From IMG/VR virus record IMGVR_UViG_2872158770_000004: a stretch of DNA of 34,669 nt; one strand, given 5' to 3'. The translations under genes and the position numbers were made by a program. This document shows, one piece after another, positions 11,457-12,442 of the stretch (position 1 is the stretch's first letter; each line of letters starts with the position of its first letter). This DNA is from a virus (lineage: Duplodnaviria > Heunggongvirae > Uroviricota > Caudoviricetes). The notes beneath the pieces are model-generated. The model did not search any database. It was not told where the DNA came from and was given only the letters and a program-made list of their open reading frames with translations.

Positions 11457-11620
11457 GATGGCAGCCTCCGCGATGAATTTGATTAACTCACCACCGGAGG
11501 TAGCAATCTCATGGGTGGTGAGACGTACAGGGTTGCTACAACCGGTCATCACGGAACCCGGCCAGTCTTGCGACTGCCCCGCACGCCCCACCATAATTTG
11601 AATGTGGCTGTGCATTACGC

Positions 11621-11645
11621 ATAAAAAAACCGCCTGAGCGCGGTT
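11621..11645 (-). terminator. Rho-independent terminator-like hairpin on the minus strand
   Basis: Minus strand reads AACCGC-GCTCAG-GCGGTT followed by TTTTTTT. Confidence 0.45.
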
Positions 11646-12151
11646 ATGCGCCGTGAATGACTTCGGGGTAGCAATCCCGGCACCCGTTTTATGAGGTGCA
11701 GGTGCACTATAATTCCACCCGTTCTGGTTTTCAATAGCTACATTCAACATTTTCTCTTTCCTTTCATCACCGAAGTGAACTTTGTTGATGCGGTGCCTGG
11801 TGCCTCCAGGTGACGTTAACCAGTTAACAATTAACGCCGGAATAAGGGATTTTCCTTACTGTTTTAACTGTTCCGCGTGCGCTGAGCCGCATTCACCGCA
11901 TCACAAAATTCACTTTAAAAAGGGCGGACATCAGCCAGCAATTAAACCGATGCCGCCAACTGGTACTTCACACAGCAATGTCGTTATTTACAACCGGAGG
12001 CGCACTCCCACCATTTAAATTTAACAGACAAGACCGACTCTTTATGGATACCGGAAATGCGCCTTCGTGTTGTGCCCGGTTTTATTTCACCACCTCCGGG
12101 CTTTGGTGGTATCTTTACTGAAGTTCTCACACAACCAGTAAGGAAATGAAT

Positions 12152-12442
12152 ATGCCAACGTATCTCGCCAGAGTAGAACTATATAATGCTGAGCCAGAGG
12201 ATTACGAAGGGCTTCATAAATATATGCTCTCACTAGGATTCAGGAGAACGATCCCCCATGGAGATGGTTCGTATAATCAACTCCCGGACGGAACTTATGT
12301 TTCCGAAAAGGGCGGTGATATTTATCAAATTCGCAGCCAGATATCTGACTATGCAGACCGACTATCCAGGTATCGCGCGTCTGTTTTTGTTTGCGAATTC
12401 AGTCAATGCGCATGGTATTTATACCCCGCCAAGACCCGGTGA
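12152..12442 (+). CDS. Hypothetical protein (96 aa) on the plus strand within a minus-strand gene block
   Basis: ATG at 12152 with AAGGAA 6 nt upstream; MPTYLARVELYNAEPEDYEGLHKYMLSLGF...; its 3' end overlaps convergently with the IS630-disrupted gene. Confidence 0.5.
   Translation: MPTYLARVELYNAEPEDYEGLHKYMLSLGFRRTIPHGDGSYNQLPDGTYVSEKGGDIYQIRSQISDYADRLSRYRASVFVCEFSQCAWYLYPAKTR

What the first reader, a model, noticed from the sequence alone, without database searches (positions are those of the whole stretch)
11457..12442. About 700 bp of apparently non-coding sequence with a minus-strand terminator, next to an odd-strand small gene
Upstream of the Rha-like gene there is no convincing minus-strand ORF, yet a clean terminator hairpin (AACCGC-loop-GCGGTT then T7) sits at about 11621-11645. 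Something is transcribed on the minus strand and ends here, possibly a small RNA or leader. Next to it a 96-aa plus-strand gene (12152..12442, good RBS) is the only plus-strand gene in this arm and overlaps convergently with the IS630-disrupted gene, a moron-like arrangement.
Basis: partly seen in the sequence, partly recalled or inferred. Interest (0 to 1): 0.45.

Follow-up and report, generated by a model that had tools for sequence, protein, structure and literature searches.

The report
Prophage small-RNA switch guarding an antirepressor gene
The "empty" 700 bp is a row of known phage small-RNA genes (a KilS/DicF-like RNA, IsrK and a C4-type antisense RNA) that most likely control translation of the neighbouring Rha regulator, and the odd-strand 96-aa gene is a conserved YmfI/GhoS-like accessory gene, so the region is ordinary.

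Summary
The hairpin plus T7 at 11645-11621 (minus strand) is the intrinsic terminator of an IsrK small RNA (Rfam RF01394, 11699-11623, 64.8 bits against a gathering score of 50), with a TTGAAA-17-TATAGT promoter just upstream.

Directly downstream lies a C4/CI-type antisense RNA (RF01695, 11598-11511, 79 bits against 45). After it comes a leader hairpin (-25.6 kcal/mol) that buries the Shine-Dalgarno sequence of the Rha-family gene (ATG 11456).

In 36 sequence variants, the two C4 recognition sites a' and b' co-vary with decoy sites in IsrK (a1, b1) and with target sites in the leader (b2, and a2 over the Shine-Dalgarno). There are 11 a' alleles and 6 b' alleles. This is the seqA-CI-seqC (P4), c4 (P1/P7) and isrK-orf45-anrP (Gifsy-1) switch with a different cargo gene.

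Further upstream are a homologue of the K-12 Rac small RNA KilS (12011-11917, DicF-like) and the structured leader shared with kilR and dicB.

A 281-aa ORF runs through IsrK and C4, and RefSeq annotates relatives that way, but the extension shows no codon periodicity.

The 96-aa plus-strand gene is real. It has a ferredoxin-like fold, belongs to the YmfI/DUF2622 family, and sits in the slot that holds sieB in Rac. Its function is unknown. Overall this is a known kind of element and of low novelty.

The parts
10905..11456 (-). Rha-family regulator gene (183 aa), the cargo controlled by the RNA switch. The likely true start is ATG 11456-11454, 8 nt after the Shine-Dalgarno GGAGG.
   Evidence: Pfam Phage_pRha 9.9e-32. 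NCBIfam TIGR02681 1.6e-33. PHROG families annotated as anti-repressor or Ant match the Rha domain. Substitutions favour codon position 3: 45/30/79 variable columns.
11454..11510 (-). Leader of rha. It holds b2 (11506-11500), a2 (11476-11466) and the Shine-Dalgarno GGAGG (11469-11465). It folds into a hairpin that sequesters the Shine-Dalgarno.
   Evidence: MFE -25.6 kcal/mol, z = -5.2. The Shine-Dalgarno is fully paired in 19 of 21 distinct leader variants and partly paired in the other 2. Predicted duplexes: a'-a2 -16.5 and b'-b2 -8.5 kcal/mol. Covariation score 0.426 against 0.123 in shuffles.
11511..11598 (-). C4/CI-type antisense RNA (equivalent to STnc1160/'orf45' in Gifsy-1). Recognition loop a' is at 11557-11546 and single-stranded b' at 11540-11533. 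An upstream-ORF AUG lies at 11594-11592 in its 5' stem.
   Evidence: Rfam RF01695, 79 bits against a gathering score of 45, E = 4.4e-14. The MFE structure equals the Rfam structure: -44.5 kcal/mol, z = -4.2. The three C4 helices are 99-100% paired across 36 variants.
11623..11699 (-). IsrK small RNA (equivalent to seqA and a1b1). It carries b1 in the loop of hairpin 2 (11674-11668) and a1 (11661-11647).
   Evidence: Rfam RF01394, 64.8 bits against 50. A sub-threshold c4-a1b1 match overlaps it. Terminator from the scan. b1-b' is 100% paired, with changes on both sides in 5 of 7 pairs.
11706..11734 (-). Promoter-like site for isrK: TTGAAA, 17 nt, TATAGT. The -10 hexamer ends 7 nt before the first base of the Rfam match.
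   Evidence: 10 of 12 consensus matches, the best site in the scan. It is nearly invariant across the 36 variants. It has not been tested experimentally.
11457..11750 (-). In-frame upstream extension of the rha ORF (98 codons), which gives the 281-aa ORF 11750..10905. It is most likely not a conserved protein domain. Only the part from AUG 11594 onward may be translated, as an upstream ORF.
   Evidence: No codon periodicity: 50/52/49. It matches Pfam Phage_ASH at 2.7e-17, but that family also matches the P4 'cI ORF', which overlaps the C4/CI RNA gene. The same nucleotides are read in another frame in Gifsy-1.
11781..11916 (-). Conserved, strongly structured leader shared with the kilR 5' UTR (Rac) and the dicF-dicB spacer (Qin).
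   Evidence: Alignment with K-12 Rac and Qin. MFE -48.4 kcal/mol, z = -4.3. Sub-threshold Rfam STnc100 match, 33.7 bits against 47.
11917..12011 (-). KilS-like (DicF-like) small RNA with its own intrinsic terminator (stem 11954-11927, then CGCCCTTTTT).
   Evidence: Its first 43 nt are identical to the annotated K-12 KilS (b4833) and it occupies the same position. Terminator from the scan. The Rfam DicF score is only 28.6 bits against 48. KilS was verified by northern blot in K-12 (PMC8175672).
12152..12442 (+). 96-aa gene of the YmfI/DUF2622 (GhoS-like) family: an accessory gene on the opposite strand, in the sieB slot.
   Evidence: phrog_8894 3.5e-38. NCBIfam YmfI_phage 4.1e-14, below its cutoff. 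938 representative clusters. 23 of 59 homologues match Pfam GhoS. AlphaFold2 pLDDT 76.9, beta-alpha-beta-beta-alpha-beta fold.
12419..12580 (-). 3' part of a 70-aa ymfJ-like early-left gene, which overlaps the 96-aa gene convergently by 24 nt. Its 5' part lies at 13737-13786.
   Evidence: The intact 70-aa ORF is in L002 at 4150-4362. Its N-terminal 42 aa are 81% identical to e14 YmfJ. Breakpoints come from BLAST.
12581..13736 (-). IS630 copy that interrupts the ymfJ-like gene.
Evidence: Homology to the uninterrupted relative stops at 12580 and resumes at 13737. The element contains a 343-aa ORF.
10706..10894 (-). dicB (cell-division inhibitor), 10 nt downstream of rha. It shows that the IsrK-C4-rha cassette sits between the conserved leader and the division-inhibitor gene.
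   Evidence: Pfam DicB 3.8e-40. In K-12 the same leader is followed directly by kilR (Rac) or dicB (Qin).

Best explanation
The stretch 11457-12151 is not empty. On the minus strand it carries four RNA elements in a row.

(1) A KilS/DicF-like small RNA with its own terminator (12011-11917).

(2) The structured leader that precedes the division-inhibitor gene in Rac- and Qin-type prophages (11916-11781).

(3) IsrK, a 77-nt small RNA with its own promoter.

(4) A C4/CI-type antisense RNA, made from transcripts that read through the IsrK terminator.

Elements 3 and 4, together with the 57-nt leader, form an RNA switch on the Rha-family gene, a probable antirepressor.

How it most likely works. 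The default state is OFF for two reasons. Most transcripts stop at the IsrK terminator. In read-through RNA the rha Shine-Dalgarno is buried in a stable hairpin. The C4 sites a' and b' can additionally pair with a2, which covers the Shine-Dalgarno, and with b2.

IsrK carries decoy copies of the same sites (a1, b1). Free IsrK pairs with a' and b'. By analogy with Gifsy-1, this opens the AUG at 11594 inside C4. Ribosomes then translate through the leader hairpin and Rha is made. In this lineage the upstream ORF is in frame with rha.

What is shown and what is inferred. Shown here: the identity and structure of the RNAs, the promoter-like and terminator sites, the complementarities, and their covariation. 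Inferred from P1/P7, P4 and Gifsy-1: the processing of C4, the direction of each regulatory effect, and that Rha acts as an antirepressor.

The 96-aa plus-strand gene is a separate accessory gene of the YmfI/DUF2622 family. It is paired convergently with a ymfJ-like gene and occupies the slot that holds sieB in Rac. It most likely serves exclusion or defence, or acts on RNA, but this is a guess.
For: RNA identities. Rfam matches above the gathering score for isrK and C4. The same two families occur in the same order in P4 (seqA and CI) and in Gifsy-1. A promoter-like site lies 7 nt upstream of IsrK, and its terminator is present.

Structure. The predicted C4 fold equals the Rfam structure (z = -4.2), and the leader hairpin has z = -5.2. 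In the minimum-energy fold of the 260-nt read-through RNA, IsrK a1b1 pairs with C4 a'b' and the Shine-Dalgarno is buried. This resembles the translationally inactive 'structure A' of PMC4825925.

Covariation in 36 unique variants. The score for a1-a' with b1-b' is 0.582 against 0.159 in shuffles, and for a'-a2 with b'-b2 it is 0.426 against 0.123. No shuffle out of 500 reached either value, and slid controls stayed at or below 0.21.

Alignment-free check. Cognate duplexes average -23.9 +/- 1.4 kcal/mol against -13.3 +/- 3.4 for non-cognate pairs (leader), and -21.6 against -13.0 (IsrK). There are 11 a' alleles, 6 b' alleles and 17 combinations. Shine-Dalgarno sequestration is kept in 21 of 21 leader variants.

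Coding test. The extension shows no periodicity, the Rha coding sequence does.

KilS. Homology and position match K-12.

Literature. PMC4825925 covers the Gifsy-1 mechanism, calls IsrK a structural homologue of P4 SeqA, and describes STnc1160 as generated by processing of the read-through transcript. PMC2864571 lists the c4 and c4-a1b1 motifs. PMC8175672 describes KilS.

The 96-aa gene.
Against: There are no expression data for this locus.

The cargo protein is unrelated to Gifsy-1 AnrP (ORF6N against Rha domain). There is no icd gene as in P1. The cassette sits in the early-left operon, not downstream of a Q gene. The Gifsy-1 pathway (AnrP leading to AntQ) therefore cannot simply be transferred.

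The upstream ORF is fused in frame here instead of ending at an AUGA overlap, so the coupling step must differ.

The long ORF stays open in 33 of 36 variants, which a pure-RNA model explains only downstream of AUG 11594.

The variants are closely related (80-100% identical), so shuffle controls overstate significance.

The DicF model scores below threshold.

For the 96-aa protein, the fold matches are generic for ferredoxin-like folds, and the window protein itself does not reach any curated family cutoff.
Confidence: 0.85

Rival explanations
1. The region 11457-11750 is protein-coding. The true gene would be the 281-aa 'Ash-Rha' fusion that starts at ATG 11750, as RefSeq annotates relatives, and the hairpin would be incidental.
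For: The ORF is open in 33 of 36 variants, and the common length difference between variants is 3 nt. A purine-rich stretch precedes ATG 11750. The extension matches Pfam Phage_ASH (2.7e-17) and full-length PHROG 995. RefSeq annotates 282 aa.
Against: The extension has no codon-position bias (50/52/49) while the Rha domain has one (45/30/79). Both RNA families pass their gathering scores, and the three sets of pairing sites co-vary. Pfam Phage_ASH also matches the P4 'cI ORF', which overlaps the C4/CI RNA gene, whereas the real epsilon protein matches another family. In Gifsy-1 the same nucleotides are read in another frame and interrupted by stops. ATG 11750 lies upstream of the isrK promoter, and a strong intrinsic terminator sits inside the ORF.
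Confidence: 0.05
2. Purely repressive control of the P1/P7 type. Processed C4 RNA blocks the rha ribosome-binding site through a2/b2 and causes polarity. On this view IsrK is only the 5' leader that carries a1/b1, with no activating role in trans.
For: a2 covers the Shine-Dalgarno and b2 lies in a single-stranded stretch. The C4 structure and sites are conserved.
Against: The Shine-Dalgarno is already sequestered in cis without C4. IsrK has its own promoter and terminator, and a1/b1 co-vary as tightly as a2/b2. In Gifsy-1, IsrK supplied in trans activates translation about 100-fold (PMC4825925).
Confidence: 0.2
3. Transcription-termination control of the P4 type. C4/CI RNA pairs with a1b1 (seqA) and a2b2 (seqC) on nascent RNA and enforces premature termination, so the switch acts on transcription and not on translation.
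For: P4 has the same order of isrK-like and C4 matches. IsrK ends in an intrinsic terminator that lies between a1b1 and C4. PMC4825925 discusses this possibility for STnc1160.
Against: a2 overlaps the Shine-Dalgarno, and a conserved hairpin hides the Shine-Dalgarno, which points to translational control. In Gifsy-1 the translational effect (139-fold) far exceeds the transcriptional effect (8-fold), and co-expression of STnc1160 did not relieve IsrK-mediated growth arrest (PMC4825925).
Confidence: 0.15
4. The 96-aa protein is a GhoS-type sequence-specific endoribonuclease antitoxin of a type V toxin-antitoxin pair.
Against: The window protein itself does not match PF11080. hhalign against E. 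coli GhoS gives only 29% probability. A profile search of PDB sequences does not find GhoS. No ghoT-like small hydrophobic ORF follows it. The structural matches are generic for the fold.
Confidence: 0.1

Closest known systems
isrK-orf45(STnc1160)-anrP locus of Salmonella prophage Gifsy-1 (Hershko-Shalev et al. 2016, PMC4825925)
   Same: Same two Rfam families in the same order. IsrK has its own promoter and a leaky terminator. a1b1 is complementary to the downstream C4-like RNA. An upstream-ORF AUG sits in the same AUUAUGGUG motif. The downstream Shine-Dalgarno lies next to or under a2. The predicted inactive fold pairs IsrK with C4.
   Different: The cargo is a Rha-domain protein, not the ORF6N protein AnrP; the two share no significant similarity. 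The upstream ORF is fused in frame to the cargo instead of stopping at AUGA. The cassette lies in the early-left operon between a KilS-like RNA and dicB, not downstream of antQ.
immI region of phages P1/P7: c4 antisense RNA, icd, ant (Rfam RF01695; mechanism recalled from my own knowledge)
   Same: C4 fold with a' and b'. Targets lie upstream (a1b1) and downstream (a2b2). The downstream target covers a ribosome-binding site. The a'/b' sequences differ between alleles. The cargo is related to antirepressors: PHROG families annotated Ant match the Rha domain.
   Different: There is no icd gene, and a2 covers the Shine-Dalgarno of the cargo directly. a1b1 is packaged as a separate terminated small RNA. 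An additional cis hairpin sequesters the Shine-Dalgarno.
Immunity region of satellite phage P4: seqA, CI RNA (seqB), seqC
   Same: An isrK-like match (seqA) and a C4 match (CI) occur in the same order. The historical 'cI ORF' of P4 and the extension of the long ORF here match the same Pfam family, PF10554.
   Different: According to PMC4825925, P4 CI acts by premature transcription termination and controls the phage's replication genes. Here the downstream target overlaps a Shine-Dalgarno in front of a Rha gene.
KilS small RNA of K-12 prophage Rac (b4833; Bar et al. 2021, PMC8175672) and DicF of Qin
   Same: Same position upstream of the conserved leader. The first 43 nt are identical to KilS. 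The terminator hairpin GGCGG...CCGCCC-U5 is DicF-like.
   Different: The central part differs from both. The DicF covariance model scores only 28.6 bits against 48. It is followed here by the IsrK-C4-rha cassette before the division-inhibitor gene.
YmfI/YmfJ of prophage e14, and the sieB slot of Rac
   Same: A small plus-strand gene converges on, and overlaps, a ymfJ-like early-left gene. The 96-aa protein aligns with YmfI (26% identity, E = 1e-9; NCBIfam YmfI_phage 4.1e-14). In K-12 Rac and in L003, sieB occupies the same slot on the same odd strand.
   Different: The score is below the YmfI equivalog cutoff (52.9 against 140 bits). The protein is unrelated to SieB. No function is known for YmfI or YmfJ.

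Membership tests
Rfam isrK (RF01394) | Covariance-model score at or above the gathering score of 50 bits | tested here: met
   64.8 bits, E = 7.7e-12, full model 1-77
Rfam isrK (RF01394) | Independent small RNA: own promoter and Rho-independent terminator | tested here: met
   TTGAAA-17-TATAGT ends 7 nt before position 1. Stem 11645-11628 plus U7. Sequence level only; expression was not tested.
Rfam isrK (RF01394) | Hfq binding and trans-activation of downstream translation (Gifsy-1) | not testable with these tools
   Needs co-immunoprecipitation and reporter fusions (PMC4825925).
Rfam C4 antisense RNA (RF01695) | Covariance-model score at or above the gathering score of 45 bits, with the three-helix fold | tested here: met
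   79 bits. The MFE structure is identical to the model structure. The three C4 helices are 99-100% paired across 36 variants, with changes on both sides in 2 pairs.
Rfam C4 antisense RNA (RF01695) | a' and b' complementary to a1/b1 upstream and a2/b2 downstream, with co-varying alleles | tested here: met
   11 a' and 6 b' alleles. Cognate duplexes are about 9-10 kcal/mol more stable than non-cognate ones.
Rfam C4 antisense RNA (RF01695) | Downstream target overlaps the ribosome-binding site of the controlled gene | tested here: met
   a2 at 11476-11466 includes 4 of the 5 bases of the Shine-Dalgarno GGAGG (11469-11465).
Rfam C4 antisense RNA (RF01695) | Processed from a longer precursor transcript (by RNase P in P1; recalled from my own knowledge) | not testable with these tools
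   No RNA data are available.
P1/P7 immI operon (c4-icd-ant) | An icd ORF between c4 and the antirepressor gene, translationally coupled to it | tested here: not met
   No separate ORF is present. The only ORF between C4 and rha is the in-frame upstream ORF that starts at 11594.
Gifsy-1 isrK-orf45-anrP locus | Upstream ORF that starts in the 5' part of the C4-like RNA and stops at an AUGA overlap with the cargo start | tested here: not met
   The start is conserved (AUUAUGGUG). Here the upstream ORF is in frame with rha and has no stop, in all 21 leader variants. Gifsy-1 has the AUGA overlap.
Gifsy-1 isrK-orf45-anrP locus | Cargo homologous to AnrP | tested here: not met
   BLASTP E = 0.049 over 35 aa. 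AnrP is ORF6N (PF10543) and the window protein is Phage_pRha.
Rfam DicF (RF00039) | Covariance-model score at or above the gathering score of 48 bits | tested here: not met
   28.6 bits, E = 8e-4 in a 1.4-kb search. It resembles DicF only in the terminator hairpin.
KilS small RNA (K-12 Rac) | Sequence homology and synteny with b4833, upstream of the kilR-type leader | tested here: met
   The first 43 nt are identical, the terminator tail is shared, and the flanks match.
Pfam GhoS / DUF2622 (PF11080) | HMM score at or above the gathering score of 21 bits | tested here: not met
   No match for the window protein even at E <= 10. Close homologues score 12-18 bits. 23 of 59 remote homologues match at E <= 0.01. 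The paralogue in the same slot scores 21.2 bits.
Pfam GhoS / DUF2622 (PF11080) | Adjacent ghoT-like membrane toxin gene | tested here: not met
   No small hydrophobic ORF lies downstream on the plus strand; the gene runs into the convergent ymfJ-like gene.
NCBIfam YmfI_phage (NF051477) | Score at or above the equivalog cutoff of 140 bits | tested here: not met
   52.9 bits, E = 4.1e-14, full length. This makes it a related family member, not an equivalog.
Pfam Phage_pRha (PF09669) | HMM score at or above the gathering score of 29.9 bits | tested here: met
   109.8 bits, residues 19-103 of the 183-aa protein.
Pfam Phage_ASH (PF10554) as a protein domain | The region evolves as a protein-coding sequence | tested here: not met
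   The HMM matches (63.6 bits), but the region has no codon periodicity. The family also matches the P4 'cI ORF' laid over the C4/CI RNA gene.

The most novel reading that the evidence does not exclude
In this E. coli/Shigella lineage the short ORF that starts inside the C4 RNA gene (AUG 11594) is fused in frame to rha in every leader variant examined. The RNA switch might therefore produce a long Rha isoform (229 aa) whose first 46 residues are encoded by the antisense-RNA gene itself, alongside the 183-aa form. That would parallel the in-frame Ant1/Ant2 pair of P1 (recalled from my own knowledge). The C4 gene would then be both a regulatory RNA and coding sequence. The 17 or more a'/b' allele combinations would act as orthogonal specificity codes between co-resident prophages.
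Probability: 0.2. Interest if true: 0.5.

Novelty: new member of a known kind. Interest (0 to 1): 0.27.

Why it matters
The main value is for annotation. A stretch that looks empty, or that pipelines cover with an over-long 'Rha/Ash' protein, in fact holds three or four small-RNA genes. These probably decide whether a prophage antirepressor-like protein is made, and so bear on prophage induction in E. coli and Shigella, including Stx-phage relatives that carry the same module.

The work also indicates that the Pfam 'Ash' domain reported on Rha proteins, and used as a marker for P4 epsilon, is probably a translation of the C4/CI RNA gene.

The natural allele series (11 a' alleles and 6 b' alleles, each matched by changes at its two pairing sites) is a ready-made set of compensatory mutants for testing the mechanism. 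Nothing here changes current understanding of how such switches work.

Tried and rejected
(1) The long 281-aa ORF as the real gene. Rejected on codon periodicity, the frame comparison with Gifsy-1 and the P4 precedent.

(2) DicF proper. The covariance model is below threshold. The RNA is better described as a KilS homologue.

(4) A dN/dS-type test on the 96-aa gene with close relatives. It was uninformative because the gene is almost identical among them.

(5) A genome-contig scan with the Rha protein gave only 8 loci. The viral-contig scan gave the 80 loci used for covariation.

(6) STnc100. Only a partial, sub-threshold match; I treat it as the shared kilR/dicB leader.

(7) Column-based counting for a'-a2 and b'-b2 is blurred by a 3-nt indel in b2 and a 1-nt register shift. 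It was backed up by alignment-free duplex energies.

(8) No convincing sigma-70 promoter for the 96-aa gene was found by the scan. A possible extended -10 (TGGTATCTT, about 12108-12116) was seen by eye only.
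Full report
**Context.** The window is the early region of a Rac-like lambdoid prophage that is heavily interrupted by insertion sequences. The left arm runs on the minus strand. It holds a truncated integrase, a RecE fragment, dicB, a Rha-family gene, the region in question, a DUF1391 (ydaF-like) gene and a CI-like HTH repressor at 14240-14659. These are followed by divergent cro-like and YdaT-like genes and, further right, a Q-like gene. The best complete E. coli genomes are only about 93% identical over 11400-12500. Identical copies of the Rha-upstream module occur in IMG/VR contigs.

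**The observation.** The minus-strand hairpin AACCGC/GCGGTT (11645-11628) followed by T7 (11627-11621) is present. As a bare pattern it is not remarkable: the scan found 10 terminator-like sites in 4.1 kb where shuffles give 4.6 +/- 2.5. The 96-aa ORF (12152-12442, AAGGAA 6 nt before the ATG) and its convergent overlap with a gene split by IS630 are also present. The IS630 copy occupies 12581-13736. One correction is needed. A 281-aa ORF (11750..10905) is open through the first 294 nt of the 'non-coding' stretch, and RefSeq annotates 282-aa 'Rha family' proteins in relatives.

**What the hairpin belongs to.** A scan of the whole window against Rfam gives two adjacent minus-strand matches above the curated thresholds. 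They are isrK (RF01394, 11699-11623, 64.8 bits against 50) and C4 antisense RNA (RF01695, 11598-11511, 79 bits against 45). The best sigma-70-like site in the region (TTGAAA, 17 nt, TATAGT; 11734-11706) ends 7 nt before the first base of the IsrK match. A permissive scan adds three sub-threshold matches. These are c4-a1b1, overlapping IsrK; DicF at 11972-11922 (28.6 bits against 48); and STnc100 at 11910-11781 (33.7 against 47). The same isrK-then-C4 order is found in satellite phage P4, where the elements are known as seqA and the CI RNA. It is also found in Salmonella prophage Gifsy-1, upstream of anrP. This agrees with Hershko-Shalev et al. 2016, who call IsrK a structural homologue of P4 SeqA. 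They describe a processed species, STnc1160, downstream of IsrK and compare its possible role to that of the P4 CI RNA (PMC4825925).

**Anatomy of the switch.** C4 folds into the Rfam structure (-44.5 kcal/mol, z = -4.2). Its hairpin loop a' (11557-11546) and its single-stranded stretch b' (11540-11533) are each complementary to two other places.
- In IsrK: b1 in the loop of hairpin 2 (11674-11668) and a1 (11661-11647).
- In the 57-nt leader between C4 and rha: b2 (11506-11500) and a2 (11476-11466). a2 includes 4 of the 5 bases of the rha Shine-Dalgarno GGAGG (11469-11465).

The leader by itself forms a 15-bp hairpin (-25.6 kcal/mol, z = -5.2) that buries the Shine-Dalgarno. In the minimum-energy fold of the 260-nt read-through RNA, IsrK a1b1 pairs with C4 a'b' and the Shine-Dalgarno stays buried. 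This resembles the translationally silent 'structure A' shown experimentally for Gifsy-1.

**Comparative test.** A scan of IMG/VR and of reference genomes with the Rha protein returned 88 loci. Together with loci fetched earlier, 86 carry the same upstream module at 80-100% nucleotide identity. The 81 sequences that span the module, the window's own among them, give 36 distinct sequences.

The internal helices of IsrK and C4 are kept: 95% of cells are paired, and the three C4 helices are 99-100% paired. The long-range pairings co-vary strongly.
- b1-b' is paired in 100% of cells, with changes on both sides in 5 of 7 pairs.
- The covariation score for a1-a' with b1-b' is 0.582 against 0.159 in shuffles.
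- The score for a'-a2 with b'-b2 is 0.426 against 0.123.
- No shuffle out of 500 reached either value, and slid controls stayed at or below 0.21.

An indel disturbs the columns around b2, so I repeated the test without an alignment. Cognate a'+b' duplex energies average -23.9 +/- 1.4 kcal/mol with the leader and -21.6 +/- 1.3 with IsrK. Pairs of loci that differ in both alleles give -13.3 +/- 3.4 and -13.0 +/- 2.6. There are 11 a' alleles and 6 b' alleles in 17 combinations. The hairpin that hides the Shine-Dalgarno is predicted in all 21 distinct leaders, which means the strand opposite a2 co-varies too. The sequences are closely related, so the shuffle statistics overstate independence. The repeated allele replacements matched at all pairing sites are nevertheless hard to explain otherwise.

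**Is the long ORF a gene?** The frame is open in 33 of 36 variants. The extension also matches Pfam Phage_ASH (2.7e-17) and several PHROG families. Three results argue against a conserved protein.
- Variable alignment columns fall 50/52/49 on codon positions 1/2/3 in the extension. They fall 45/30/79 and 34/18/55 in the two parts of the Rha coding sequence.
- In Gifsy-1 the homologous nucleotides are read in a different frame after small indels, and the other frames contain stops. This matches the statement in PMC4825925 that the orf45 nucleotide sequence is conserved but the peptide is not.
- Pfam Phage_ASH matches the historical 137-aa 'cI ORF' of P4 at residues 22-85. Those residues lie over the Rfam C4 match, the position of the P4 CI RNA, which PMC4825925 describes as the immunity factor. 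The real P4 epsilon protein matches a different family, PF25738.

What does seem to be selected is an open frame from the AUG at 11594-11592 to the rha start. That AUG lies in the conserved AUUAUGGUG at the 5' end of C4, within one position of the first orf45 AUG of Gifsy-1. In Gifsy-1 this ORF ends at an AUGA overlap and is needed for translational coupling. Here it is fused in frame to rha in all 21 leader variants.

**Most likely mechanism.** Default OFF. Most transcripts from the isrK promoter stop at the terminator and yield IsrK. Read-through RNA hides both the upstream-ORF AUG (in the C4 stem or in the IsrK-C4 pairing) and the rha Shine-Dalgarno (in the leader hairpin, and possibly under C4 a'). 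When IsrK accumulates, its a1/b1 sites pair with a'/b'. The upstream-ORF start then becomes accessible, and ribosomes that read through the leader hairpin allow Rha synthesis.

The pairing partners and structures are shown here. The direction of the effects, the processing of C4 and the role of the upstream ORF are inferred from Gifsy-1. The P1-type (purely repressive) and P4-type (termination) modes remain possible variants. That Rha acts as an antirepressor is an inference from the PHROG families annotated Ant that match its Rha domain and from the gene's position behind a C4-type switch. The cargo is unrelated to AnrP (ORF6N). The cassette lies between the kilR/dicB-type leader and dicB, not downstream of a Q gene. 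The downstream biology described for Gifsy-1 should therefore not be assumed.

**The rest of the 700 bp.** Alignment with K-12 shows that 11773-12113 is homologous to the kilR-sieB intergenic region of Rac and, in part, to the dicF-dicB region of Qin. K-12 annotates the small RNA KilS there (b4833). KilS was verified by northern blot and found in RIL-seq (PMC8175672). The window homologue is 12011-11917. Its first 43 nt are identical to KilS, and it ends in the DicF-like terminator found by the scan. The following 136 nt (11916-11781) form a conserved, strongly structured leader (z = -4.3). In K-12 that leader runs straight into kilR or dicB. Here the IsrK-C4-rha cassette is inserted before dicB (10894-10706).

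**The plus-strand gene.** The 96-aa protein has few close relatives: 11 clusters, some named DUF2622 in Salmonella. The wider family is large, with 938 representative clusters at E <= 0.001, mostly 92-100 aa, and conserved R7, E9, Y18, L21-H22, M25, L44-P45 and Y49. It is intact in 7 related loci and disrupted in others.

In e14, ymfI is likewise the odd-strand gene and converges on ymfJ. The N-terminus of the 70-aa gene that converges on the 96-aa gene is 81% identical to YmfJ. Other prophages with the same Rha module carry a 37%-identical paralogue opposite a ymfJ-like gene, while K-12 Rac and L003 carry sieB in that slot. The function is unknown; exclusion or defence, or an RNA-directed activity, is a guess.

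**Verdict.** It resolves into members of described families (IsrK, C4/CI, KilS/DicF-like, Rha, YmfI-like). The features that differ from the studied examples are the Rha cargo, the in-frame upstream ORF, the location in the early-left operon, and the clear natural allele series. Interest is low to moderate. The most useful by-products are corrections to annotation: over-extended Rha proteins, and the Pfam 'Ash' domain that probably reflects an RNA gene.

Noticed in passing
window 11457-11750 (-); L096 (phage P4) 8168-8584 and 8420-8507: Pfam PF10554 'Phage_ASH' appears to be a conceptual translation of the C4/CI RNA gene region. It matches the extension of the long 'Rha' ORF here and the historical P4 'cI ORF' that overlies the Rfam C4 match. 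The real P4 epsilon protein matches PF25738 instead. Papers use PF10554 as a marker for epsilon/Ash (PMC8628076) or describe an 'Ash domain' on Rha proteins of Stx phages (PMC8951638). RefSeq 282-aa 'Rha family' proteins are probably over-extended.
   Followed up: yes
L004/L007, L005/L008, L017/L026, L044/L083, L012/L021 (pairs of loci from one source genome): When one genome carries two copies of the IsrK-C4-Rha module, the copies differ in a', in b', or in both. This held in 5 of 5 source genomes, two of which carry the same pair of alleles, and it suggests orthogonal specificities between co-resident prophages. L021 has two C4 copies in tandem about 414 nt apart. In complete E. coli genomes that match the 11400-12500 query, the median number of matching places is 2 and the maximum 10.
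   Followed up: partly
window 12419-12580 plus 13737-13786 (-) and 12152-12442 (+); L097 (e14) 4498-5085; L080 197-645: The convergent, overlapping pair of a YmfJ-like gene (operon strand) and a YmfI/DUF2622-like gene (opposite strand) recurs in e14 and in several Rac-like prophages. The 3' end of the ymfJ-like gene changes with its partner. It may be a functional two-gene unit.
   Followed up: partly
window 11781-11916 (-): A conserved, highly structured leader (-48.4 kcal/mol, z = -4.3) is shared by the 5' UTRs of kilR (Rac) and dicB (Qin). It gives a partial, sub-threshold Rfam STnc100 match. Its role is unknown.
   Followed up: partly
window 4160-4338 (+): Full-length RalA small RNA (RF02694, 207 bits), the antitoxin of the RalR type I toxin-antitoxin pair of Rac.
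   Followed up: no
window 22269-22443 (+): Rfam sok (RF01794) match, 118 bits, which suggests a hok/sok-type toxin-antitoxin locus in the right arm.
   Followed up: no
window 25419-25726 (+), next to 24555-25229 (+): Four tRNA genes in a row lie just downstream of a Q-like antiterminator gene (DUF1133 / Phage_antitermQ).
   Followed up: no
window 14191-14209 (-): A strong terminator-like hairpin (8 pairs, 6 of them G-C, then T5) lies immediately downstream of the CI-like repressor gene and ahead of the DUF1391 gene. It may separate repressor transcription from the early-left operon.
   Followed up: no
window 535-1691, 2851-4124, 6021-7177, 8806-9962, 17810-18966, 31448-32604; also 19185-19688, 22701-23204, 33239-33742: There are many insertion-sequence copies. 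ORF pairs of 100 and 272 aa recur five times; the one 272-aa ORF that was scanned has IS3-family transposase domains. A further IS3-family pair of 136 and 301 aa lies at 2851-4124. A 167-aa ORF recurs three times and was not identified. This IS load suggests a Shigella-like host and a decaying prophage.
   Followed up: partly
L095 (Gifsy-1) 33513-34329: In Gifsy-1, a' (UCGGUGAU) is complementary to AUCACCGGAGG at the anrP Shine-Dalgarno. Direct occlusion of the cargo ribosome-binding site by the C4-like RNA (STnc1160) therefore looks possible there too, in addition to the published orf45-coupling model. This was read by eye from the alignment.
   Followed up: partly
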